From: Promethearchaeota archaeon
GTDB taxonomy: Archaea > Asgardarchaeota > Lokiarchaeia > Sigyniarchaeales > SOKP01
Direction: 5' to 3'
DNA: 64,000 nt
Assembly (NCBI GenBank): GCA_048940445.1
Contig: JBHLON010000010.1
Coordinates: 22,102-86,101 of the forward strand
The notes under the pieces were generated by a model. It saw only the letters and a list, made by a program, of their open reading frames with translations, made no database searches and had not been told where the DNA came from. Position numbers and translations under genes: made by a program. How positions within the stretch are numbered: the stretch's first letter is position 1; each line of letters opens with the position of its first letter. Shown here piece after piece: positions 44,331-63,269 of this stretch.

Positions 44331-45137
44331 ATGGAATTAACTGAAGATCAAATTGAAAGATATTCTCGCCAGATAATTTTAAGCGAAATTGGGAGCATTG
44401 GACAGAAAAAGCTATTAGCTTCTAAGGTATCATTAGTTGGTTTGGGAGCTTTAGGATCCTCCGCAGCTTATTATTTAACAGCTGCAGGAGTTGGAAGATT
44501 GCAGTTGATTGACTATGATGTGGTGGAAATTTCTAATTTACATCGACAAATTCTTTATTACACTCACGATATAGATCATTATAAAACAGACACTGCTATT
44601 AAAAAGTTAAATGCACTTAATCCTGATTGCAAAATAGAAATTATCACTGAGAAGATTAATCCGGACAACTCAAGGAAAATTTTGGGTGATTCTGATTTTG
44701 TTATTGAAGGTTCAGATAATTTTCCAACAAAAATGTTAATCAATGATACCTGTGTGCATTTAAAAATACCATTTACAATAGCAGGAGTTTTAAGATTTCA
44801 TGGACAAATGATGACAGTCGTTCCTGAAGACAAAACAACATGTTATAAATGCATTTTTGATAATGTAAATGGAATGGATCCAAATATGACTTGTTCTGTA
44901 GCAGGAGTTATTGGAGCTGCACCAGGAATTTTTGGTTGTTTAGAAGCTAATGAAGCTTTAAAGTCTCTTCTAAATATTGGAGAACTAATGGTAAATAAAA
45001 TCTTGTTTATTGATATTCTTAGAAATACTTTTAGTTTTATTGATGTCTATCGAAACACTAATTGTAAATCTTGTGGTGAGAATCCAAAAGCATTTGAAGA
45101 AATCACAGACTATTGGAGTGAAGATTTTTGCAGGTAG
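44331..45137 (+). CDS. moeB: ThiF/MoeB/UbaA E1-like adenylyltransferase
   Basis: RYSRQ, GLGALG, SNLHRQ, CYKC, catalytic TC and CKSC. Confidence 0.92.
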   Translation: MELTEDQIERYSRQIILSEIGSIGQKKLLASKVSLVGLGALGSSAAYYLTAAGVGRLQLIDYDVVEISNLHRQILYYTHDIDHYKTDTAIKKLNALNPDCKIEIITEKINPDNSRKILGDSDFVIEGSDNFPTKMLINDTCVHLKIPFTIAGVLRFHGQMMTVVPEDKTTCYKCIFDNVNGMDPNMTCSVAGVIGAAPGIFGCLEANEALKSLLNIGELMVNKILFIDILRNTFSFIDVYRNTNCKSCGENPKAFEEITDYWSEDFCR

Positions 45138-45394
45138 ATAATAAAAGTGAAGAGCATAAAGGTTTTTATAAGCTAGATATAAGAGGAAAAGTTTGTCCAA
45201 TGACTTTTGTATATACTAAAGTTGAACTTGAGAAGCTTAAGAAAGATGATATCCTAGAAGTAATATTAGATTTTGAACCAGCACTTAAAAATATTCCAAC
45301 AAGTTGCGAGCGCCAAAAATTAGCAATTCTTTTAAAGACAAAATCAATTAATTCAAATCCAAAAGAGTGGATGCTTAGACTTAAGAGGATTTAA
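45128..45394 (+). CDS. tusA: TusA-family sulfur carrier
   Basis: LDIRGKVCPMT; overlaps the E1 stop. Confidence 0.88.
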   Translation: MQVDNKSEEHKGFYKLDIRGKVCPMTFVYTKVELEKLKKDDILEVILDFEPALKNIPTSCERQKLAILLKTKSINSNPKEWMLRLKRI

Positions 45395-45421
45395 TAATTT
45401 TCCTAGTTCCCATTCTAATTT

Positions 45422-45733
45422 CTATCCCCCGGCGATAGCAGGTAAAAATGAGAGCTCATCACCATCCTGTAATAAAGTTTTTAAATTATTGAGAGAACGG
45501 ACGTCTTTACCATTCTTAGCTATGATTATATAATCATTAATCTCATTTGGATTTTTTAATATTAGTTTTTCAAATTTTCTTCCAAAAACTAGAATTATTC
45601 GTTTAATAGCATCATTAATAGTAGATCTTTCATTAGCAAATAACATTATTTCATCCTTATTTGTTATATCGCTAATTACTGAGAAAAAAGAAACTCTAAT
45701 TTGGATCATATAATCTTTTTTAATATCATTCAC
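45422..45733 (-). CDS. MoaD/SAMP ubiquitin-like sulfur carrier
   Basis: NGKDV...LQDGDELSFLPAIAGG with C-terminal GG; start may be ATG 45709. Confidence 0.92.
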   Translation of the reverse strand: MNDIKKDYMIQIRVSFFSVISDITNKDEIMLFANERSTINDAIKRIILVFGRKFEKLILKNPNEINDYIIIAKNGKDVRSLNNLKTLLQDGDELSFLPAIAGG

Positions 45734-48534: not shown

Positions 48535-48903
48535 ATGCTAAAATTTTCGTTTGTAGTTGCTGCTGAACCATATAAGTATGAAGCAATTGATACAGTTATA
48601 AATTTAGGTGAAGCTGTTATTAAAAAAGGTCATAAATTGTTAGGCATTTTCTTTTTTGGCAGTGGTGTATATAATATTAAAAAAGATCGGAAGTTATTCA
48701 CCTCAGTTAGAGACTTACCGAAAAGACTTCAGGAGTTTGCTGAAAAAAACGATAGTAGAATTGCAGCATGCAGCACATGGGTAAGTATAACTGGATTGAA
48801 AGAATCAGACTTTATTACACAAGCATGTTCCGATGGATTAGGTGGGCTTTCAGAATTAATTGGAAATTCTGATCGCGTTGTATTTTTTGGGCCTGGGAGG
48901 TGA
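48535..48903 (+). CDS. dsrE: DsrE/TusD-like sulfurtransferase (copy 2)
   Basis: EPY, IFFFGSGVYN, AACSTW active Cys and GLGGLSE. Confidence 0.85.
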   Translation: MLKFSFVVAAEPYKYEAIDTVINLGEAVIKKGHKLLGIFFFGSGVYNIKKDRKLFTSVRDLPKRLQEFAEKNDSRIAACSTWVSITGLKESDFITQACSDGLGGLSELIGNSDRVVFFGPGR

Positions 48904-48909
48904 GGAGAT

Positions 48910-49275
48910 ATTACATCCGTTTTAATAATTTGTGAAGATTCTCCCTTCGGAAAAAATTCCGCTGTTGAATCAATTAGATTGGCTGCAGGAATTATAAGTT
49001 TGGGAGATATTGAGAAGTGCCAAGTATTATTACTAGGAGATGCAATATTCTTTCTAAATAAAAACGTGAATGCTTCAGCTACGAATATGGATTCACTTGA
49101 TGATATGATTAGGTTGATTGAATTATCCGAACTGCACATTATTGTAGCACTAGAAGATCTTATTGCATTAGGTCTTGATAAAAATGACTTAATTTCATAT
49201 CAGAATTTAGATTTTATGGATAATATGGCCGTTTCCAAACTAATATTGGAAAATGATCTTTGTTTTAAATTTTAA
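48910..49275 (+). CDS. dsrF: DsrF/TusC-like protein (copy 2), probable ATT start
   Basis: In-frame ITSVLIICEDSPFGKNSA upstream of the listed TTG matches paralog MIKSVVIISDQSPIGKNSA; GGAGGTGA SD. Confidence 0.82.
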   Translation: MTSVLIICEDSPFGKNSAVESIRLAAGIISLGDIEKCQVLLLGDAIFFLNKNVNASATNMDSLDDMIRLIELSELHIIVALEDLIALGLDKNDLISYQNLDFMDNMAVSKLILENDLCFKF

Positions 49276-49288
49276 TAAAGTGATATAA

Positions 49289-49621
49289 ATGGAGAAAATT
49301 CTTTATCTTTTTGGGTATAGTATAAACAATTATACACCATTAGTAAAAATAGTAAATATAATACGACAACAGAAGGAATTAGGTGCAGATATCTCATTTA
49401 TATTTATGCATGATGGTGTCATCGGTCTTACCAAAGAATCTAAATTAAATGACCCTTTATTAAGCCTCATCGATCTGAATATTTCTCTCTATATTCTTCT
49501 TCCTGATCTTAAAGCTCGTGGAATCAATCCAGATAAAGTATTAGATAATATCATTAAAATTGAATATGAAATTCTTGTAGACCTATTAGCAAGAAATTCA
49601 AGAATAGTATCTTGGTTGTAA
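49289..49621 (+). CDS. dsrH: DsrH/TusB-like protein (copy 2)
   Basis: HDGVIG, PDLKARGI and VSW terminus. Confidence 0.85.
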   Translation: MEKILYLFGYSINNYTPLVKIVNIIRQQKELGADISFIFMHDGVIGLTKESKLNDPLLSLIDLNISLYILLPDLKARGINPDKVLDNIIKIEYEILVDLLARNSRIVSWL

Positions 49622-52321: not shown

Positions 52322-52561
52322 TTATTTAACGGCTTCGAAATAAATCCACCATTGTTCTTCATCTTCGATGAATTCGGTCCCAAGATGTTTATGTTTGGTT
52401 TGCTTAGCCAAATCTCTAGGAACACTCTCAGATGCAGGTTTGTAGTCTGTAATAACTTTTAGTACAGTTCCAGGTCGCATTTTCATTAACTCTTTTTTTG
52501 TCTTTAGCGCTGGAACAGGACAAACTAAACCGCATACATTTAATTCTTGATCAAATTTCAT
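52322..52561 (-). CDS. tusA: TusA-family sulfur carrier (last gene of the hdr operon)
   Basis: GLVCPVP and LKVITD. Confidence 0.9.
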   Translation of the reverse strand: MKFDQELNVCGLVCPVPALKTKKELMKMRPGTVLKVITDYKPASESVPRDLAKQTKHKHLGTEFIEDEEQWWIYFEAVK

Positions 52562-52604: not shown

Positions 52605-55076
52605 TTAATCACAAATAATTGAAAATAATGGATCTATCATATCGGTCTCTGCTTTCATTTCTAATTCCATTAACTGAACTAACCGAAGTGCTTCATATCT
52701 AACTTTTCTTGCTTCCATTCCAGTATTTTTTGCTATATCATTTATTGTACTAGGTCCTTGAAGGGTAATATAATCTAACACTAGTTGTCTCGGAGTTTTT
52801 TCAAAAGTCATAAGTTCTCTCTTTGATTTCAAATTGATGGCAGTTTTCAGTTCCTTCTCATTCACTTTAGCTTGTTCATATAAACCTTTTTCAATAGCCT
52901 TTTCAACAAGTGTTTTTCCTCGTTCAGTCCATGCTACAACAGTAGTATATCCTTTTTGTGATCCAACTTCCCCCGCAGTTATATCGGAATAAATTGCTGG
53001 AAAATCTTGACAATGAGAACAGAAATGATTACAACTTAAACATCTACGTGCTTCTTGTAAAGCCAAATCTTCATTAAACACCCTTTCAATCTCTTCAAAA
53101 GACCAATTTATATCTTCTGTTGCTACTTCTAATGATTCTGGCTTTATTGAGTAATCTTTTGGAGGTTTTTTCGGACCAGTAAAAAATGAATTCACTCTTT
53201 TATACCTTCCATCTACTAAATCCTCTCCTTTCAAATATCTGTCAATTGAAATTGCTGCTTCTTTTCCGTGCGATATTGCAGCAATAGCTACAGCTTTGGA
53301 ATTATTAATGATATCTCCTCCTGCAAAAATACCAGGGATGTTTGTTTCAAATGTAATTTCATTAACTTTGATTTTATTTCGTTCTTTTTCTAATTTATTT
53401 TTAGTTGCAGCGTCTATTTGGTCAAAATCAACTGCTTGACCAATGGCTATGACTATATTATCAACTGGGATCTCATAATCAGTATTCTCAACTTTATTCA
53501 AAGACTTCCTTCCATTCACATCTGGTTTTCCCCATTTGATTTTATAACAATTCAAAACCAACTTACCCTCGTCATTCTGAGTGATCTTTGAAGTGGAACT
53601 CTCGAAATGATATTGTATATATGACATTTCACTTTCGGGGATTTCCCTTAAAACTAGTTCTAATTCTTTTTCAGACATGATATCTACTAAATGAACTTTT
53701 TCAGCACCTAACCTTAAAGCTGTTTGAGCAACATCTACAGCAACGGGTCCGCCTCCGATGACACCAATAGTTTTTCCTTTAAATTCTTCTTTATTTTCCC
53801 AATATCGGTATTTTCTATCTATAAGGAAATTTATCGCAACAAATACATTTGGAAGATTCTCTCCTTCTAAGTGTAATGTTCGAGGCTTATATTGTCCAGT
53901 GGCAATAAAAATAGCTTCATATCCATTATTTTTTAAATCTTCTATAGTCATGTCAGGCCCTAATGGTTTATTAAGCTCTACCTTTACGCCAGAATCAATG
54001 ATTCTTTGTATATCGTAATCTAACACATAGTTGGGTAATCTAAATTGTGGAACTCCAAATCGTAACATACCACCAGTCTTATCGGTTTTTTCGAATATTG
54101 TTGGAGCATATCCTCTTTTTCTTAAGTAAAATGCAGCAGTTAGTCCTGCGGGACCAGAACCTATAATAGCTACCTTTTTTGCATTCTTTTTTAATTTTGG
54201 ACTACCTTTTGAAATTTTCTTTTCCTGTTCAATTTCCCATTCAGTCACAAACTTCTTTAATTCCCGAATTGCAACTGGATGATCGTCCCCAATTAAAGTA
54301 CATCCAAATTCACATTCATTTGTACAGATTCTACCACAAACTGAAGGGAGTGGATTGTTTTCTATGATTAAGTTTACAGCATCTTGATACTTGCCTTGAC
54401 GTATTAACGAGATATACCCTTGAGCGTTAACACCCGAAGGACAGTTATTACAGCACGGAGAACACACTAAACCTTTATCTGTTTCTTCAGTTCGAATTTG
54501 TGAATTACAAAATAGACCTATCTTTAAAATTTCTCGTTTCATTTCTTCTGCAATTTCAGCAGCTCCGCGCATTTCACATGGAACACCAACAATCCCTATT
54601 TCATCAAAAGTTTCACCTGTAACTTCTACTAGTCGTTCTAAAACACCTGATCTACCATAAACCACGCCTGCTTTCTGAATTACTTCTTCTGGATTTGTTA
54701 CGATCTCTGCGGATGGTTTTTCATCATTATCCTCTTGAACCATAACTGCTTTCTTAATAGTGTTATTTTCTAATAATTCCTTAACGAAAGTTGTCACAAA
54801 TCCTCCACTGGATGCTTTAGCTAACACTTTTGGATTTTTGCTTCTCAATGAATAAATAGCTAAAGGTTGTTTTTCTTCAAACTTTTTTTGAATAACCTGA
54901 GGACAAATTTGATAACATTTTCCACATTCCTGACCATCTCTCTCTAAAACACAATAATCTTTAAGGGATGGTCGCCTTACTTCCATTTCAATATGCTTAC
55001 AAGACCCCGCACATAGGCCACAACCTTGGCAAAGGCCGGCATCTACTACTTCAGCTTTTAATAATTCAAAACTCAT
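52605..55076 (-). CDS. Ferredoxin + FrhB-like scaffold with inserted GltD/NfnB-like NAD(P)H oxidoreductase + C-terminal wHTH
   Basis: CQGCGLC, SSGGFVT, VGVPC and IGLFC (FrhB-N); SPCCNNCP, CGRIC, GSGPAG, GGGPVA, FAGGD and RRCLSC (GltD); CSHCQDF...DITAGEVGS (FrhB-C). Confidence 0.85.
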   Translation of the reverse strand: MSFELLKAEVVDAGLCQGCGLCAGSCKHIEMEVRRPSLKDYCVLERDGQECGKCYQICPQVIQKKFEEKQPLAIYSLRSKNPKVLAKASSGGFVTTFVKELLENNTIKKAVMVQEDNDEKPSAEIVTNPEEVIQKAGVVYGRSGVLERLVEVTGETFDEIGIVGVPCEMRGAAEIAEEMKREILKIGLFCNSQIRTEETDKGLVCSPCCNNCPSGVNAQGYISLIRQGKYQDAVNLIIENNPLPSVCGRICTNECEFGCTLIGDDHPVAIRELKKFVTEWEIEQEKKISKGSPKLKKNAKKVAIIGSGPAGLTAAFYLRKRGYAPTIFEKTDKTGGMLRFGVPQFRLPNYVLDYDIQRIIDSGVKVELNKPLGPDMTIEDLKNNGYEAIFIATGQYKPRTLHLEGENLPNVFVAINFLIDRKYRYWENKEEFKGKTIGVIGGGPVAVDVAQTALRLGAEKVHLVDIMSEKELELVLREIPESEMSYIQYHFESSTSKITQNDEGKLVLNCYKIKWGKPDVNGRKSLNKVENTDYEIPVDNIVIAIGQAVDFDQIDAATKNKLEKERNKIKVNEITFETNIPGIFAGGDIINNSKAVAIAAISHGKEAAISIDRYLKGEDLVDGRYKRVNSFFTGPKKPPKDYSIKPESLEVATEDINWSFEEIERVFNEDLALQEARRCLSCNHFCSHCQDFPAIYSDITAGEVGSQKGYTTVVAWTERGKTLVEKAIEKGLYEQAKVNEKELKTAINLKSKRELMTFEKTPRQLVLDYITLQGPSTINDIAKNTGMEARKVRYEALRLVQLMELEMKAETDMIDPLFSIICD

Positions 55077-55078
55077 GT

Positions 55079-56314
55079 CTATCCCTCTTTAATTTTTATT
55101 TCTTTTACTATACCTATTGAATCAATCGTAAATTCAACCGAACCATTTTTATAGGATCCCTCAACCACGTCAAAAACGTGAGTTTTATAATCGTCAAAAT
55201 TATCATTCTCATTAATCTGCGTTTTAAATCCACCATAATAGAGATTAGATAAATTCATATTCCCTGCTATTTTTCGTATGTTATCAGTTACATCTTTATA
55301 CTTTTTTGGATCTCTAGATTCTATTGCTTCTAATAATTCCTTTTCTAATTCTCTCAATTGATTTCGATATTGTTTTGTGGCCTCACTTACTTCTATATTA
55401 TTGGCTTGCTCATAGGTTTCCAAGATTTTAAGTGTTAAAGAAATTGAGTGATCTCCTCCTAATAAACCAGTGATTAAAGGTAATTCTTCCACTAATCTTC
55501 CTGTAAATACATCTTCTAATAAACTACCAGATGAGGAGATTCTCCCTTTAGGCAATCCAGATGTAGATAATGTAAATCTAAAGAAGTTACCAACTACATC
55601 TGGTAAACTTGCAGTCACATCATCATCATTATCAGCTAATTTATCAGTTGCTCCTTTTTCAGAATGTTCCGTAGCAACCTCAATGTTTCCCATTAATGTT
55701 CCAAACATTCCAAGCATTCTAATTCCCGAACGTTCTACCATTGGTTTACAACCACGACAAGGTGCATTATAATCTATACATCGTTCCTTGCATTCTTTTG
55801 CTATAAAACCGTTACATAAATATCCAAGATCGTTAAAACATTTTTCGCCATCATCTAATTCAATTTGACGTTTTACTTCTTTCAGATAATCGCATGTTTT
55901 CTTTCTTCCACATACTATACATAAATTATTTAACTTTACTAAATCTTCACCATTAATCTGAGATTTAAGTTCTTCTATCTCAGCTAAACACCCATTAACA
56001 TTTATAACTTCTTTGACAAAATTTTTTAAGGGAGTAATTTCATGGCCTCGTTGATTAGCTAAGGCAAAGACCCCTCCAGTAGTAGTACAATCTCCATAAG
56101 CAATAATTTTTTGTGAATTTTTTTTGATTTTATCTAAAGTATCTTTATCCTCTGGTAATAAATAACCAGTAATTACAGAAGCATTTGTTTTTTCCTCTTT
56201 CCAATCTTTAGGATTTGCAATAAATTCTATTTTATAATCTGAATCTGCTTTTAATAAAATTGTTTCATTAAAGCATTTATTGCATCCATTAAACTGAAAT
56301 ACTTTAACATCCAT
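55079..56314 (-). CDS. mvhG: MvhG/FrhG-like hydrogenase small subunit with a C-terminal extension resembling a degenerate large subunit
   Basis: GCNKC, AYGDCTTTGG, NGC, CIVC, CF..LGYLCNG...C...C...PCRGC and NFFRFTL; about 155 aa of extra C-terminus. Confidence 0.8.
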   Translation of the reverse strand: MDVKVFQFNGCNKCFNETILLKADSDYKIEFIANPKDWKEEKTNASVITGYLLPEDKDTLDKIKKNSQKIIAYGDCTTTGGVFALANQRGHEITPLKNFVKEVINVNGCLAEIEELKSQINGEDLVKLNNLCIVCGRKKTCDYLKEVKRQIELDDGEKCFNDLGYLCNGFIAKECKERCIDYNAPCRGCKPMVERSGIRMLGMFGTLMGNIEVATEHSEKGATDKLADNDDDVTASLPDVVGNFFRFTLSTSGLPKGRISSSGSLLEDVFTGRLVEELPLITGLLGGDHSISLTLKILETYEQANNIEVSEATKQYRNQLRELEKELLEAIESRDPKKYKDVTDNIRKIAGNMNLSNLYYGGFKTQINENDNFDDYKTHVFDVVEGSYKNGSVEFTIDSIGIVKEIKIKEG

Positions 56315-56756
56315 CCTTTAAGGTCCCCTCCTCTTTAATTGCAGTTGCTAATCGTTCCACAATATCTTCAAAATCTCCAACTGCCGTTTCTGCTTCCGCA
56401 GCTCGTGAAGTATATTGATTTACAAATTGGTCACTATATCCTAATTCTTTGAATAATTTTTTCACGAGTTTAATCCTATGCATTGAGAGAATATTGCCAT
56501 TGAAGAAATGACAAGCTCCTATACAACACCCTACACATGCAACACTGTCAGCTCCATTATTTAGCGCATCCATTATTTGAATAGGTCCCACTTGACCAGT
56601 ACATTGGACCCGCACTATACGTATTGCAGGATTATATGACATTCGAGCTACACCAGCTGTATTAGCTGAACCCTGACCACATTCATTACACATGAAAATT
56701 ACTATGTTTTCCATTTTCTCGAGCACTTCTGGCTCAACATATTCACATTCACTCAT
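56304..56756 (-). CDS. mvhD: MvhD/FlpD [2Fe-2S] subunit
   Basis: CNEC, RVQCTGQV and GCCIGACHF; ATG 56756 behind GGAGGTG. Confidence 0.9.
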   Translation of the reverse strand: MSECEYVEPEVLEKMENIVIFMCNECGQGSANTAGVARMSYNPAIRIVRVQCTGQVGPIQIMDALNNGADSVACVGCCIGACHFFNGNILSMHRIKLVKKLFKELGYSDQFVNQYTSRAAEAETAVGDFEDIVERLATAIKEEGTLKDGC

Positions 56757-58785
56757 CTTCGCATACAACACCTCCGCCTGATACGGCGATTATTTCATCT
56801 AATAATTGATCATCCCTAAAATTTAACAATTGAATTGCTCCCGTTGGACAAGCAGGCATACACATACCACATGATTTACATGCTACCTCATTAATCATAG
56901 GAATACCATCATCATTAAGTTGAATTGCGGCGGGAGAGCATACTGTTTTACATAATCCACATCTAACACACAGATCTAAGTCTACAGATGGGATTAACAT
57001 TTCTTTTTCAATATATCCCTTTACTAAAGGAGCAGCTGCTATTGCTGCAGCACTACCAGCATGAGCTACTGATTCTGATATATCTTTGGGACCTTGAATT
57101 GCTCCTGCTAAAAATATCCCTCCTTTGCTACTTAACGTAGGGTTCATTTTAATATGAAATTCTTTTAAAAATCCTTCTTTTGATCGTAATACTTGTAATT
57201 TCGAACCCAAAGGACCAATACCTTCTGGTGGAACCATTGCTGCTGAAAGTACTACTAAATCTGCCTTAAGTTTTAATGGTGTTTGACTTAAAGTATCCTC
57301 AACGATTACACGCAACTCTCCAGAAATTGGGTCTCTAAGGATTTCTGAGGGTCTTCCTCTAATAAATCGAACTCCTACTTCTTGAGCTGATTTATATAAT
57401 TCCTCAAAATTTAATCCTGGTGTTCTTACGTCTATATAACAGATAGTTACATTTGCGTTAGGATACATTTCTTTTATAATGCGTGCATTCTTGACCGCAA
57501 ATTTGCAACAAACACCAGTACAGTATTGATTACCAACTTGATCATTTCTACTTCCAACACATTGGATCATCACTACATTCTTTGGAATCATACCATCAGA
57601 TGGTCTTAATACTTGACTATTTGTTAATGAACCTGGGGCCAGCATTCTTTCCATTTGCAGTTGAGTGATGACATTTTCATAACCTTCTTGTTTATAATGA
57701 TACGGTTCTATTTCAGAAGGATCATATTCATCATAGCCTGCAGCTACTACTATAGAACCTACTTTAAATCTTTTAGTTTCTGGTTGCATCGAAAAGTCAA
57801 CAGCCTGAACGGGACAAATATTTATACAAGTGTTGCATTCTATGCAATTTTTCTTATCTCTTACAAATGTAGCTGGAATTGCTTGAGGATACGCCTTGTA
57901 TATAGCTTTCCTCATTGACATTCCTTTATCCCATTCACTAGGAACTTCTACAGGACAATGAGCTGAACAATCTCCACAGGATGTACAATTATCCTTCACA
58001 TATCGAGGTTTAATTTCTATCTCAACTTCAAAATTACCCATTGATCCTTCCACTTCCTTAACCTGTGCATTAGTATAAAGTTCTATCAAAGGGTGATTTG
58101 CAACTCCATTAGTTAATGGAGATATCGAACATTGTGGACATTCTAATGTTGGAAATGTTTTATTTAACTGCGTCATATGTCCTCCTATTGTTGATTCACG
58201 CTCAACTAGATAGACTGGAATCCCTAATTCTGCTAGATCATGAGCAGATCTAAGACCAGCAATGCCACCTCCAATTACTAGCGCAGCCTTAGTAGTAGGT
58301 ATTCTACGAGTTTCAACATCCTCTAACTTTCGTGCTCTATTAACTCCTGCTTCTATTAATTGTTTTGCCTTTTGAGTTGCTTTATCTTTTTCTTTTTGAT
58401 GTACCCAACTATCAAATTCTCTAATATTTACTTGTTGATGACGGTGTTTGTTTAACCCCATTTCCTGAATTGCATTTGCAAATGTTCTTCCGTGCTGATT
58501 TTTGGAACACGATGCCACCACAGTTCTATTCACACCTAATTCTTTAATCGAATCTTTTACCATTTGGACGCCTGGTTTACTACACATAAACATATAGTGC
58601 TCTGCTTTAACAACATTAGGTAAATGCTTAGCATATTCTGCCACTTTAGCAACATCAACAGTACCAGCGATGTTATGACCGCAATGACATACAAACACCC
58701 CTATTCTAGGTTCTCCTTCTTTAGTTTCTTCTACGTCTCCCTGAATCTCGTGTTTTTCCTTAATTTTTTCTTCTTTTACTGTCAT
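56749..58785 (-). CDS. hdrA: Heterodisulfide reductase subunit A (flavin-bifurcating)
   Basis: IGVFVCHCGHNI, VNIRE, GGGIAG, KTFPTLECPQC, QCVGSR, CTGVCC, GPKDI and ferredoxin motifs. Confidence 0.96.
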   Translation of the reverse strand: MTVKEEKIKEKHEIQGDVEETKEGEPRIGVFVCHCGHNIAGTVDVAKVAEYAKHLPNVVKAEHYMFMCSKPGVQMVKDSIKELGVNRTVVASCSKNQHGRTFANAIQEMGLNKHRHQQVNIREFDSWVHQKEKDKATQKAKQLIEAGVNRARKLEDVETRRIPTTKAALVIGGGIAGLRSAHDLAELGIPVYLVERESTIGGHMTQLNKTFPTLECPQCSISPLTNGVANHPLIELYTNAQVKEVEGSMGNFEVEIEIKPRYVKDNCTSCGDCSAHCPVEVPSEWDKGMSMRKAIYKAYPQAIPATFVRDKKNCIECNTCINICPVQAVDFSMQPETKRFKVGSIVVAAGYDEYDPSEIEPYHYKQEGYENVITQLQMERMLAPGSLTNSQVLRPSDGMIPKNVVMIQCVGSRNDQVGNQYCTGVCCKFAVKNARIIKEMYPNANVTICYIDVRTPGLNFEELYKSAQEVGVRFIRGRPSEILRDPISGELRVIVEDTLSQTPLKLKADLVVLSAAMVPPEGIGPLGSKLQVLRSKEGFLKEFHIKMNPTLSSKGGIFLAGAIQGPKDISESVAHAGSAAAIAAAPLVKGYIEKEMLIPSVDLDLCVRCGLCKTVCSPAAIQLNDDGIPMINEVACKSCGMCMPACPTGAIQLLNFRDDQLLDEIIAVSGGGVVCEDE

Positions 58786-59700
58786 TTATGCTACCTCCTC
58801 TTTCTTAGTTTCTGCTTGCCCAAAAATATAATCACGTCCCATTAACTGATATTGTAATCCTACAAAATCTTGATCCATGCCCATACAATAGGCTACAAGC
58901 TGGGATAGATGAATTACTGGATAATCATAATTACATTCTTTATTTTTATTTAAATAGTCTTGTCCCGTTTCGAATTGCAAATGACAAAACGGACAGATAT
59001 CTAAAATAAAGTCAGGCTTTACTTCATCGATATTTTTCATTTTCTCTGCAAAAATCGTCATACTTGCATCTCCGGAGTATGCTTTAACACCTCCTCCTGC
59101 GCCACAGCAAGTTAATTGTTCTTTAAACCTTACTGATTGTATTCCTAAGACTTCAATAAATTCTTCGATAATTGTTGGCCCTTCAGAACTTTCAATTTCT
59201 CGTATTCTTGTTGGCTTTAAGAAATGACACCCATAATGAACAGCAGCTTTAGCGTTTAACTTCCTTACAATATAATCTTCAACACCCCAAGGTCCAACTT
59301 CATATCCTAATACTTCTGCAACATGTCGAACGTTAATCGTCCCTTTAAATTCATAATCTCCGAGAAGTTTCAGCTTTTCATTTACTTTTTCTCGATGTTC
59401 TTCATTTTCTTTGAGATGCTTATTTACTTCTTGAAGTGTGCCAAAACATCCATTACACACAGTTAAAATATCCGCATCCATTTTTTCAGCAATACTAATA
59501 TTTCTGGCTGCTGCAACCATCCAATCAAATTTATTAAATGAACGAAACACACCGGGTGCAGGACAACAAGTCGCTCTTTCCATGTCTAAAAGTTCATATC
59601 CTAATTTCTCCATAACGAATTTTGTCGATTTTTCGATTGCAGGATATCGATTGGGCATAATACATCCAAGGAAAAATGCAAATGTTTTTTCTTTTGCCAT
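58786..59700 (-). CDS. hdrB: Heterodisulfide reductase subunit B
   Basis: FLGC, TCCPAPG, CNGC, HYGCH, CCGAGGG and CPFCHLQF. Confidence 0.96.
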   Translation of the reverse strand: MAKEKTFAFFLGCIMPNRYPAIEKSTKFVMEKLGYELLDMERATCCPAPGVFRSFNKFDWMVAAARNISIAEKMDADILTVCNGCFGTLQEVNKHLKENEEHREKVNEKLKLLGDYEFKGTINVRHVAEVLGYEVGPWGVEDYIVRKLNAKAAVHYGCHFLKPTRIREIESSEGPTIIEEFIEVLGIQSVRFKEQLTCCGAGGGVKAYSGDASMTIFAEKMKNIDEVKPDFILDICPFCHLQFETGQDYLNKNKECNYDYPVIHLSQLVAYCMGMDQDFVGLQYQLMGRDYIFGQAETKKEEVA

Positions 59701-59703
59701 TTT

Positions 59704-60264
59704 TTAGGCCTCTTCTTTTTTCTTTTTTTCCTCCTTAACTGGAGGTAAATCAAACATGTTTTCTTCAATTTTTTTTAAATCTTTTTCATCCCCTTCCTGC
59801 TTGAACTTGAACGCAGTCGGAGGTAATTCTTCTAACCCTAATTCAACTCTTCTCTTTCTCACTTCATCATTTATCGGAACAGCATGTCCAAAATTTTTCA
59901 AGTACCCAACCACAGCTCTATGATTAGGAGAAATATTTCCTAATTTAGTAGCATAATTTCTTAACTCCATAATTACGTCTGTTGGCCTTACATCTCGTGG
60001 ACATCGTTCATAACACTGATAACAGGTTGTACACAACCAAATATCAGGATCTCTCAATACTGATAAATCTCCCAAAACTACTTTTCTAACAATTAAACGT
60101 GTTTTTAATGCGGTCCATCGTCCGCTTTCACAACTTGCAGTACAAGTACCACATTGGATACATTTTAAAATATTTGATCTACGTTCAATATCGCTAAAAA
60201 ATTCTGGGTTGAAATCCTCATCAACCTTAAATTCCCGATGTTGTTCTTCTTTCACATCAGACAT
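59704..60264 (-). CDS. hdrC: Heterodisulfide reductase subunit C
   Basis: CIQCGTCTASC, IWLCTTCYQCYERCPR and GHAVP. Confidence 0.95.
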   Translation of the reverse strand: MSDVKEEQHREFKVDEDFNPEFFSDIERRSNILKCIQCGTCTASCESGRWTALKTRLIVRKVVLGDLSVLRDPDIWLCTTCYQCYERCPRDVRPTDVIMELRNYATKLGNISPNHRAVVGYLKNFGHAVPINDEVRKRRVELGLEELPPTAFKFKQEGDEKDLKKIEENMFDLPPVKEEKKKKEEA

Positions 60265-62310: not shown

Positions 62311-62452
62311 ATTATTATCAAAAAATAGCACAAACAAATATAATGATTTATAAATAGATATTACAAACAAAAAGTTTATATTAATTTTATCATATTTATA
62401 TCTAGACAATTAGAAATTGTTGATTTAACAAGTTAAAAATTTGAGTTTAATT

Positions 62453-62920
62453 ATGACAGAAATTATAGATTTAGATGATTTAGACAAACAGATTCTTAGT
62501 ATTCTACAAAATAATGCCAAGGCATCGCTCCGTGACATTGAAAAAGAGATTCAGTTAACTCCAACTTCAATAAGGATGCGAATAAATCGTTTAAAGGAAA
62601 AAAAAGTAATTAAACAATATGTAACTTTGATAGATTGTCGTTTTTTAGGATACCGTGAGATGGTGATGGCATCACTTCGAGTAAATTCATCATATCCTTT
62701 AGACGATCTTAAGAGAAAAATAGAACTCATGGATAAGATAAAATATGCTTATATAATTACTGGAGAGTACCCATTGTTTATTATGGCAAAATGTCTGAAT
62801 CATCAAGATTCTATGGGACTCATCGAGAATTTACGTAACCTTCCAGGAGTAGAGGAAGTAAAGACTCAAATTGTGTTGGATAAAATTAAAGAAGATCCCT
62901 CCGTTATCATCCCTGAATAA
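62453..62920 (+). CDS. Lrp/AsnC-family transcriptional regulator
   Basis: LDDLDKQILSILQNNAK HTH; ITGEY and LPGVEEVKT; ATG 62453. Confidence 0.93.
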   Translation: MTEIIDLDDLDKQILSILQNNAKASLRDIEKEIQLTPTSIRMRINRLKEKKVIKQYVTLIDCRFLGYREMVMASLRVNSSYPLDDLKRKIELMDKIKYAYIITGEYPLFIMAKCLNHQDSMGLIENLRNLPGVEEVKTQIVLDKIKEDPSVIIPE

Positions 62921-63269
62921 TATAAGAGCACGAATTCAACGACTTGAGAAAGAATTAATTAAAAAATATGTTGCGTTGATTGATTGTCGTCAATTAGGGT
63001 ATCGTGAAATGGTAATGGCATCACTGAGAGTAAATGCTACTAATCCATTAGAGGATGTTAAAAACGAGATTGAGAAAATGGAAAAAATTAAGTATGCTTA
63101 TATTGTCACTGGAGAATATCCTTTATTTATTATGGCAAAATGTCTAGATCATTCAGACTCCATGGGTCTTATAGAAACACTTCGCAACCTTCCTGGAGTT
63201 GAAGAAGTGAAAACTGTGATTGTCTTGGATCGTATCAAAGAAGACCATTCAATTATTATTCCAGAATAA
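62871..63269 (+). pseudogene. Second Lrp/AsnC paralog lacking most of its HTH
   Basis: Homology to the first copy starts at IRARIQRLE, immediately after the first copy's TAA; the effector domain is intact. Confidence 0.7.

What the first reader, a model, noticed from the sequence alone, without database searches (positions are those of the whole stretch)
55079..55550. MvhG fused to a vestigial, nickel-less NiFe hydrogenase large subunit
Seen: after the normal MvhG end (PDVVGNFFRFTL) come about 155 extra residues with no Cys. They read LEDVFTGRLVEELPLITGLLGGDHSISLTLKILETYEQANNIEVSEATKQYR and end VVEGSYKNGSVEFTIDSIGIVKEIKI. Established: group 3 large subunits begin with roughly FEKF..GR..EE.P.I..RICG.C...H..AS.KA.E.A.G.EV...A..LR and later carry VEAPRG...H.Y..D..G.V....I. 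Inference: the extension matches both segments by eye, but the RxCGxC Ni-ligand motif has become GLLGGD and the C-terminal DPCxxC is absent. It may be a miniaturised pseudo-enzyme kept to cap the proximal Fe-S cluster, so the small subunit would act purely as an electron wire.
Basis: partly seen in the sequence, partly recalled or inferred. Interest (0 to 1): 0.87.

Follow-up and report, generated by a model that had tools for sequence, protein, structure and literature searches.

The report
Nickel-free hydrogenase remnant fused to MvhG
In many Asgard archaea and one family of methanogens, a hydrogenase's iron-sulfur subunit carries a shrunken, metal-free relic of its hydrogen-splitting partner, apparently turning a hydrogen-fed electron-bifurcating enzyme into one fed by NADH or coenzyme F420.

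Summary
Confirmed. ORF 56314-55079(-), 411 aa, is an MvhG with all 12 Fe-S cysteines, fused to a ~147-aa remnant of a group 3 [NiFe] large subunit. HMMER against Pfam/PDB misses it. A diverse profile aligns residues 266-325 to the MvhA L1 region (hhalign 95%, E 2e-8), and its best other hits in this genome are the two real large subunits. An AlphaFold model (pLDDT 92.5) superposes 265-411 collinearly on FrhA (Z 11.8, 2.5 A). No CxxC in 74 relatives; dN/dS 0.13. It occurs in 79 of 400 Asgard genomes (Lokiarchaeia, Thorarchaeia, cultured MK-D1) and in Methermicoccaceae, in hdrC-hdrB-hdrA-mvhD-mvhG*-frhB-tusA, mostly with dsrE genes, never beside a large subunit. In hydrogenase-free Methermicoccus shengliensis the syntenic gene, published as plain 'FrhG', is transcribed and detected as protein. 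Best reading (0.7): a non-catalytic cap that lets MvhG act as a wire in an H2-independent Hdr donor arm (NADH here, F420H2 in Methermicoccus). Contact with the proximal cluster, direction and sulfur substrate are inferred. Elp-Hdr is the precedent. This scan noted the fusion before in other Asgard genomes; no paper searched describes the remnant.

The parts
55547..56314 (-). MvhG/VhuG-type small-subunit part (aa 1-256): 12 conserved Cys for three [4Fe-4S] clusters (C11, C14, C76, C109; C132, C135, C159, C167; C175, C179, C186, C189); ~30-aa loop between C76 and C109 deleted
   Evidence: phmmer 9sw2_E E 6e-12, 5odc_E 1e-9; VIA 5odc_E Z 21.1, 2.6 A, 242 aligned; Cys census, spacing 33 vs 62-64 in unfused MvhG
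55082..55522 (-). Large-subunit remnant (aa 265-411), Cys-free, about one third of MvhA
   Evidence: VIA: FrhA 6qgt_A Z 11.8, 2.5 A, 147 aligned, chain 41-402; 5aa5_C Z 11.1, 2.3 A, model 265-411 on chain 60-523; HyhL, NuoD, MBS large subunit, NdhH likewise; dN/dS 0.13
55340..55519 (-). L1 region and following helix (aa 266-325 = MvhA 41-103); invariant R273, E277, R317
   Evidence: hhalign 95%, E 2e-8 to 3e-8; reciprocal HMM
55448..55465 (-). Erased L1 nickel motif: RICGIC replaced by LLGGDH (aa 284-289)
55229..55264 (-). GNxNLSN..GG segment (aa 351-362; G351, S356, G362 invariant), counterpart of the large-subunit GG..H.P...GG loop; the His is lost
   Evidence: weak by sequence (P~0.2), collinear in structure
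55091..55162 (-). Terminal three-stranded sheet (aa 385-408), best match to the strands after the VEAPRG motif; APRG and the L2 motif are absent
   Evidence: AF2 strands 386-390, 393-397, 402-408; hhalign P 0.0005 vs 0.003 for the N-terminal hairpin
52605..55076 (-). Probable donor subunit, 823 aa: 2x[4Fe-4S] ferredoxin + FrhB domain whose F420 cap is replaced by an NfnA/GltD-type flavoprotein (aa ~202-684, Asp in place of the YRR motif) + C-terminal winged helix
56304..56771 (-). mvhD; its stop overlaps the start of the fused gene
   Evidence: FlpD E 1.6e-31; junction
56749..60264 (-). hdrA (56749-58785), hdrB (58786-59700), hdrC (59704-60264), methanogen-type
   Evidence: HdrB over the TIGR03288 cut-off, 375 vs 345 bits
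60303..62192 (-). Sulfur carriers upstream: dsrE2, dsrH, dsrF-like, dsrE/tusD, tusA
52322..52561 (-). tusA closing the operon, the most constant neighbour in all three lineages

Best explanation
An ancestral mvhD-mvhG-mvhA unit fused mvhG to mvhA once and lost two thirds of mvhA, including all four Ni/Fe cysteines, the N-terminal RxEG hairpin and the APRG loop (shown). What remains keeps the large-subunit fold (shown in a model) and is most likely a non-catalytic cap that stabilises MvhG and shields its proximal [4Fe-4S] cluster (inferred). The protein then works as a three-cluster wire in the donor arm of an HdrABC-MvhD complex that cannot use H2. Electrons enter from the co-encoded FrhB-family subunit: F420H2 where its cap is intact (Methermicoccaceae), probably NADH through the inserted NfnA-type flavoprotein in this genome. 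They pass via MvhG*, MvhD and HdrA, and are bifurcated to ferredoxin and to HdrB (inferred from Mvh-Hdr and Elp-Hdr). The disulfide handled by HdrB is most likely a persulfide on the co-encoded TusA/DsrE carriers (inferred from synteny, ~0.5); the net direction is open. Probabilities by step: homology 0.97, no NiFe site 0.97, structural role in an H2-independent arm 0.7.
For: Homology: hhalign 95%, E 2e-8. A profile with no hydrogenase rows finds the genome's two real large subunits as top non-self hits among 8810 ORFs (E 1e-5 and 3e-3; next 0.095). At least 17 of its weak hits in other genomes coincide with PF00374 L1 hits. Reciprocal HMM: 22 of 74 remnants over 10 bits, reversed sequences at most 9.4. 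AF2 without templates or MvhA rows: pLDDT 92.5, pTM 0.91; superposition on six large-subunit families. No metal site: no CxxC or DPC in 74 rows. Selection: dN/dS 0.13 vs 0.12 for the Fe-S part. Fused rows lie on one side of a 100/99 branch, and the nearest unfused relatives lie in mvhDGA(B) operons. Context: same gene order and no large subunit in 60 fused loci. The donor subunit varies only at the F420 cap. M. shengliensis has no hydrogenases, yet the syntenic BP07_RS03525 is transcribed at about the ribosomal-protein mean on methanol and detected as protein (PMC8630106 supplements). Precedent: ElpA, a cofactor-less FdhA in an F420H2-fed Hdr arm (PMC12350162). The large-subunit His loop faces the proximal cluster in hydrogenases (PMC3940037).
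Against: Model coordinates were not inspectable, so contact with the proximal cluster was not measured. The middle and last segments are weak by sequence alone, and AF2 may lean on memorised hydrogenase folds. No biochemistry exists. HdrB is the canonical CoM/CoB type, so a small-molecule disulfide is possible. Ca. Harpocratesius keeps the fusion although its FrhB is cut to 142 aa, so a flavin donor is not always in the operon. BP07_RS03525 is identified with P0316 by species label and exact gene order, not by sequence.
Confidence: 0.7

Rival explanations
1. Adaptor more than cap: the remnant's main job is to dock the FrhB-like subunit so that its ferredoxin domain sits where the NiFe site was and injects electrons at the proximal cluster.
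For: All four proximal ligands are invariant, so the cluster is probably still in the path. Ferredoxin plus winged helix are the only parts of the partner kept in the minimal version. The two genes are adjacent in every complete locus.
Against: The best-conserved residues of the remnant (R273, E277, GNxNLSN) match segments that by homology face the small subunit. The surface strands differ strongly between lineages.
Confidence: 0.3
2. The operon is simply an F420H2 (or NADH):CoM-S-S-CoB bifurcating reductase, as proposed for 'FrhBG-HdrA2B2C2' of M. shengliensis; the sulfur carriers are bystanders.
For: Proposed in PMC8630106; HdrB passes the CoB-CoM cut-off; this genome has F420-ligase homologues.
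Against: tusA and dsrE genes travel with the operon in all three lineages, even in the methanogen. CoM/CoB use by Lokiarchaeia is not established (own knowledge).
Confidence: 0.25
3. The complex runs the other way: it oxidises sulfide or thiols to TusA/DsrE persulfide for biosynthesis or detoxification, confurcating with reduced ferredoxin to make NADH or F420H2.
For: moeB, tusA, moaD and a second dsrE/F/H set lie 3-8 kb away in this window; moeB and tusA lie near the Harpocratesius operon. sHdr systems with DsrE/TusA oxidise sulfur (PMC11094781 abstract).
Against: moeB is not a regular neighbour. The Hdr is HdrABC-MvhD type, not sHdr.
Confidence: 0.2
4. The remnant has a new active site, as NuoD (quinone) or the MBS large subunit (polysulfide) do.
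For: Invariant polar residues R273, E277, E302, R317, S356; structural matches include NuoD and the MBS large subunit.
Against: No conserved Cys or His. It is only ~150 aa against 356-427 for those subunits, and the invariant residues are inherited structural ones.
Confidence: 0.08
5. The remnant is circularly permuted: its last sheet derives from the N-terminal RxEG hairpin of MvhA.
For: Second-best hhalign match, to MvhA 5-34 (P 0.003-0.01).
Against: The C-terminal match scores better (P 0.0005-0.001), and structural alignments place nearly all 147 residues collinearly, ending at FrhA 402, HyhL 377, 5aa5_C 523. An order-dependent aligner could hide a permutation.
Confidence: 0.12
6. MvhG* still pairs in trans with a real large subunit encoded elsewhere and is part of an active hydrogenase.
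For: This genome and the five other fusion-bearing genomes checked carry real large subunits.
Against: In this genome those have their own small subunits next to them. M. shengliensis has no hydrogenase at all. A ~30-aa loop of MvhG is deleted in all fused members, and the remnant should occupy the binding face.
Confidence: 0.03

Closest known systems
[quoted passage not shown]
   Same: HdrABC, MvhD, MvhG fold with three clusters (Z 21.1), gene order mvhD-mvhG-mvhA.
   Different: MvhA is reduced to ~147 aa, fused and without any Ni/Fe ligand; an FrhB-family subunit and TusA/DsrE carriers are added.
ElpABC-HdrABC of Methanothermobacter marburgensis (PMC12350162)
   Same: Nickel-free donor arm with an FrhB/FdhB-family flavoprotein, an MvhD homologue and a truncated, cofactor-less catalytic subunit kept in the arm.
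   Different: Elp derives from formate dehydrogenase and ElpA is a separate chain; here the arm derives from the hydrogenase and keeps MvhG as a wire.
'FrhBG-HdrA2B2C2' of Methermicoccus shengliensis (PMC8630106)
   Same: By gene order and flanks (purN, fae/hps, tusA ... lysS) this is the orthologous operon; it is expressed, in an organism without hydrogenases.
   Different: Published as plain FrhG with a theoretical F420:CoM-S-S-CoB role; remnant, MvhG affinity and sulfur carriers were not found discussed in the passages searched. The window's FrhB has an NfnA-type insert in place of the F420 cap.
NiFe-less large-subunit homologues: complex I NuoD/NdhH, MBS large subunit
   Same: Same fold without the NiFe cofactor (Z 8.7-9.9).
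   Different: Those are near full-length, separate chains of membrane complexes from the group 4 branch with their own substrate sites; this is a group 3 fragment fused to its small subunit.
Group F hybrid [FeFe]/[NiFe] hydrogenases (PMC11216029)
   Same: Archaeal fusion at the C-terminus of a group 3 small subunit.
   Different: There the fused domain is an [FeFe] catalytic domain and an intact large subunit is co-encoded.
sHdr-LbpA sulfur oxidation with DsrE/TusA (PMC11094781)
   Same: Hdr-type enzyme co-encoded with DsrE and TusA carriers.
   Different: Canonical HdrABC plus MvhD rather than sHdr subunits; no lipoate-binding protein was recognised in the operon.

Membership tests
[NiFe] hydrogenase large subunit (active, group 3) | L1 RxCxxC nickel motif | tested here: not met
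   Aligns to LLGGDH; no CxxC in 74 relatives
[NiFe] hydrogenase large subunit (active, group 3) | L2 DPCxxC motif, in chain or on a VhuU-type peptide | tested here: not met
   None in the family; none in the window in six frames with TGA read as Sec
[NiFe] hydrogenase large subunit (active, group 3) | PF00374 match and ~430-470 aa length | tested here: not met
   No PF00374 hit for any of 38 members; 155 aa
NiFe large subunit / NuoD superfamily (homology) | Profile similarity to the L1 region | tested here: met
   hhalign 95%, E 2e-8; genome-wide and reciprocal tests
NiFe large subunit / NuoD superfamily (homology) | Shared fold | tested here: met
   Z 11.8, 2.5 A, 147 aligned to FrhA; five more families at Z 8.7-11.1; based on a predicted model
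MvhG/VhuG small subunit | 12 Cys for proximal, medial and distal [4Fe-4S] and MvhG fold | tested here: met
MvhG/VhuG small subunit | Curated family cut-off (NF045875, VhuG) and full-length C76-C109 loop | tested here: not met
   41.6 vs 450 bits; ~30-aa deletion
FrhG (name used by JGI and PMC8630106) | Closer to FrhG than to MvhG; TIGR03294 cut-off | tested here: not met
   Z 12 vs 21; P0316 scores 30.5 vs cut-off 245.5
Mvh-Hdr bifurcating complex | hdrABC + mvhD + mvhG co-encoded | tested here: met
Mvh-Hdr bifurcating complex | Catalytic MvhA | tested here: not met
   None in 60 fused loci; present in the unfused control L145
Elp-Hdr | ElpA (truncated FdhA) and FdhB-type ElpB | tested here: not met
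   The arm is MvhG-derived; the partner is closer to FpoF/Fsr/FrhB than to FdhB
Elp-Hdr / Mvh-Hdr | Donor-dependent bifurcation to ferredoxin and disulfide; physical complex | not testable with these tools
   Needs biochemistry

The most novel reading that the evidence does not exclude
A distinct class of HdrABC donor arm built from a hydrogenase whose catalytic subunit was shrunk to a fused cap, with a swappable FrhB entry module (F420 cap, no cap, NADH flavoprotein, ferredoxin only), that couples NADH or F420H2 and ferredoxin to protein-bound persulfides on TusA/DsrE. It would give Lokiarchaeia, Thorarchaeia and Methermicoccus an H2-independent sulfane-sulfur pathway now annotated as part of a hydrogenase.
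Probability: 0.45. Interest if true: 0.78.

Novelty: new variant of a known kind. Interest (0 to 1): 0.6.

Why it matters
It marks out a natural minimal scaffold of the NiFe large subunit (about a third of the chain) that still folds with the small subunit, which could help in making stable small-subunit wires without nickel maturation. It changes metabolic models: the Nerearchaeum preprint lists this operon's gene as a plain 'MvhG homolog' and links TusA/DsrE persulfide reduction to H2, whereas the operon encodes its own H2-independent arm. It offers a candidate for the unresolved electron routing in hydrogenase-free M. shengliensis. It is testable now in M. shengliensis and P. syntrophicum MK-D1.

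Tried and rejected
HMMER of a narrow extension alignment against PDB sequences and Pfam gave only helical noise; the signal appeared only after distant members were added. The first AF2 model, from 120 close homologues, was poor (pLDDT 56) and its Foldseek search uninformative for the tail. Foldseek and pdb_via on the good model listed only small subunits because that domain fills the list; only the exhaustive VIA search showed large subunits. The ESM Atlas returned the family's own unnamed cluster. A complex prediction of the Methermicoccaceae MvhG* with its FrhB partner gave no answer and is not used as evidence. Ten paper searches found no description of the remnant; the library lacks most subscription papers. 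Rejected: assembly artefact or read-through; decaying pseudogene; H289 as a substitute metal ligand; a VhuU-type peptide completing the site. NCBI phylum labels of some MAGs (Hodarchaeota, Odinarchaeota) were not relied on. That G220 is Ca. Lokiarchaeum ossiferum is recalled from its genome size, not shown.

Full report
Observation. The finding is the 3' part of a 411-codon ORF at 56314..55079 on the minus strand. Residues 1-256 match MvhG/VhuG of solved Mvh-Hdr complexes; 155 Cys-free residues follow. The full-length form recurs in 364 homologues, named ones from Promethearchaeota and other Asgard labels, so it is neither read-through nor misassembly.

Is the tail a large-subunit relic? Direct searches fail: no PF00374 and no PDB sequence hit. 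A profile search of 1.8 billion representatives gave distant members. The resulting profile A4 contains no hydrogenase. Run on 400 Asgard genomes, it gave 80 strong matches in 79 genomes and a tail of about 70 weak matches, nearly all on profile positions ~12-79. At least 17 weak matches lie on the PF00374 L1 hits listed, and most others are in ORFs of 400-470 aa. In this genome the best non-self hits among 8810 ORFs are its two real large subunits (E 1e-5 and 3e-3; next 0.095). hhalign gives 60-62 nearly gapless columns, 95% probability, E 2e-8 to 3e-8, aa 266-325 on MvhA 41-103. The reverse test also works: 22 of 74 tails exceed 10 bits against a group 3 large-subunit HMM, reversed tails at most 9.4. 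Two further pieces map in order but weakly: the GG segment to MvhA 171-180 and the last sheet to MvhA 380-395. AF2 with 83 diverse rows (eight unfused MvhG, no MvhA, no templates) gave pLDDT 92.5 and pTM 0.91. An exhaustive structural search matched 1-259 to MvhG (Z 21.1) and the tail to FrhA (Z 11.8, 2.5 A, 147 residues, chain 41-402), a group 1 large subunit (Z 11.1, model 265-411), HyhL, NuoD, NdhH and the MBS large subunit. These Z values are moderate for a helical domain, but six members of one superfamily agree over the whole domain, and with the sequence evidence. Nearly every residue of the tail is placed, in chain order, which favours internal deletion over circular permutation.

What was lost and kept. 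RICGIC became LLGGDH; there is no CxxC or DPC in 74 relatives, and H289 is variable. No L2 peptide exists in the window. The N-terminal 40 residues, the middle half, the APRG loop and L2 are gone. All 12 Fe-S cysteines of MvhG are invariant or nearly so, while a ~30-aa loop between C76 and C109 is deleted in all fused members. That this loop embraces the large subunit is my recollection, not tested. The remnant is as constrained as the Fe-S part: median dN/dS 0.13 vs 0.12 over 213 unsaturated, non-independent pairs. Fused sequences lie on one side of a 100/99 branch, in three lineage groups (52 chosen rows, midpoint root, long outgroup branches). Their nearest unfused relatives sit in mvhD-mvhG-mvhA operons, the order that makes fusion easy.

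Context. The window reads tusA, dsrE, dsrF, dsrH, dsrE2, hdrC, hdrB, hdrA, mvhD, mvhG*, frhB::nfnA, tusA. The core order holds in all 60 fused loci as far as contigs reach, none with a large subunit nearby. They include P. syntrophicum MK-D1, Ca. Harpocratesius, Ca. Sigynarchaeum and Thorarchaeota, plus Methermicoccaceae including M. shengliensis. The downstream subunit forms a series that differs at one spot, the F420 cap of FrhB: intact in Methermicoccaceae, deleted in Thorarchaeia, replaced by a short Cys-rich insert in two loci, replaced by a ~480-aa NfnA-type flavoprotein in most Lokiarchaeia (9n5u E 1e-89), and cut to ferredoxin plus winged helix in Harpocratesius. In 42 of 43 inserts listed, the YRR motif of NADPH enzymes is replaced by an acidic residue, which by the usual rule points to NADH (inference).

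Literature. PMC8630106 lists Amam_01016-01024 (BP07_RS03515-03555) in exactly this order with the same flanks, calls the gene FrhG and proposes a theoretical F420:heterodisulfide oxidoreductase. It states that both strains lack hydrogenases and reports RNA at 1.04 times the ribosomal-protein mean in ZC-1 on methanol, with protein detected. The Nerearchaeum preprint (10.1101/2025.07.22.663070) lists the same operon with a plain 'MvhG homolog' and assigns persulfide reduction to H2 through a separate group 3c hydrogenase. Elp-Hdr shows that a cofactor-less catalytic subunit can persist in a nickel-free, F420H2-fed Hdr arm (PMC12350162). No paper found describes the remnant.

Mechanism. Shown: homology, loss of the metal site, conservation and synteny. 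Reported in a paper: expression of the syntenic gene in a hydrogenase-free methanogen. Inferred: the remnant covers the face of MvhG around the proximal cluster, since the kept pieces are the L1 region and the counterpart of the His loop that faces that cluster (PMC3940037). MvhG* then carries electrons from the FrhB-family subunit to MvhD and HdrA, which bifurcates them between ferredoxin and HdrB. The substrate is probably a TusA/DsrE persulfide. CoM-S-S-CoB and the reverse direction remain open, as does whether the remnant also docks the donor.

Verdict. It is not an active hydrogenase; it works like Elp-Hdr but is built from other parts. New variant of a known kind; interest 0.6. This scan has noted the same fusion in other Asgard genomes; those notes were not counted as support. 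The Methermicoccus orthologue with its expression data was not in the notes retrieved.

Noticed in passing
window 52605-55076 (-): FrhB-family protein with an NfnA/GltD-type flavoprotein inserted exactly at the F420 cap, an Asp-type (NADH-like) nucleotide motif and a C-terminal winged helix; four other cap states occur in orthologous operons.
   Followed up: yes
window 44331-45733 and 48535-49621: moeB/ThiF-type E1, tusA, moaD/ThiS-like carrier and a second dsrE/F/H set lie close to the operon; moeB is not a regular neighbour elsewhere.
   Followed up: partly
window 62441-63269 (+): Two near-duplicate Lrp/AsnC-type ORFs in tandem (the second overlaps the first and may lack its start); an Lrp gene flanks or sits inside the operon in most Asgard loci and may regulate it.
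   Followed up: partly
L005:8245-10879 (G000:C47): Real group 3 large subunit that ends without the L2 motif (VhuA type), next to a 441-aa small subunit with an extra Cys-rich segment; no VhuU-like peptide was found in the assembly even with TGA read as Sec.
   Followed up: partly
L153:11353-12723 (G000:C47): Second long (456-aa) MvhG-like gene without an adjacent large subunit, between an hdrCBA-mvhD cluster and hypE/D/F.
   Followed up: no
L066 / L103 (Ca. Harpocratesius repetitus): The partner subunit is reduced to 142 aa (ferredoxin + winged helix); moeB, tusA and a 395-aa ORF that looks like a cysteine desulfurase (by eye) lie next to the operon.
   Followed up: partly
L069:1650-4090 (-): A second, split copy of the FrhB::NfnA gene follows the operon in a Promethearchaeum MAG.
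   Followed up: no
G000 genome-wide: At least 14 ORFs match HdrA strongly (E below 1e-90), some fused to MvhD or NfnA-like domains, and several FrhB paralogues exist.
   Followed up: no
L099: One orthologous NfnA insert keeps the YRR (NADPH-type) motif, unlike the other 42.
   Followed up: no
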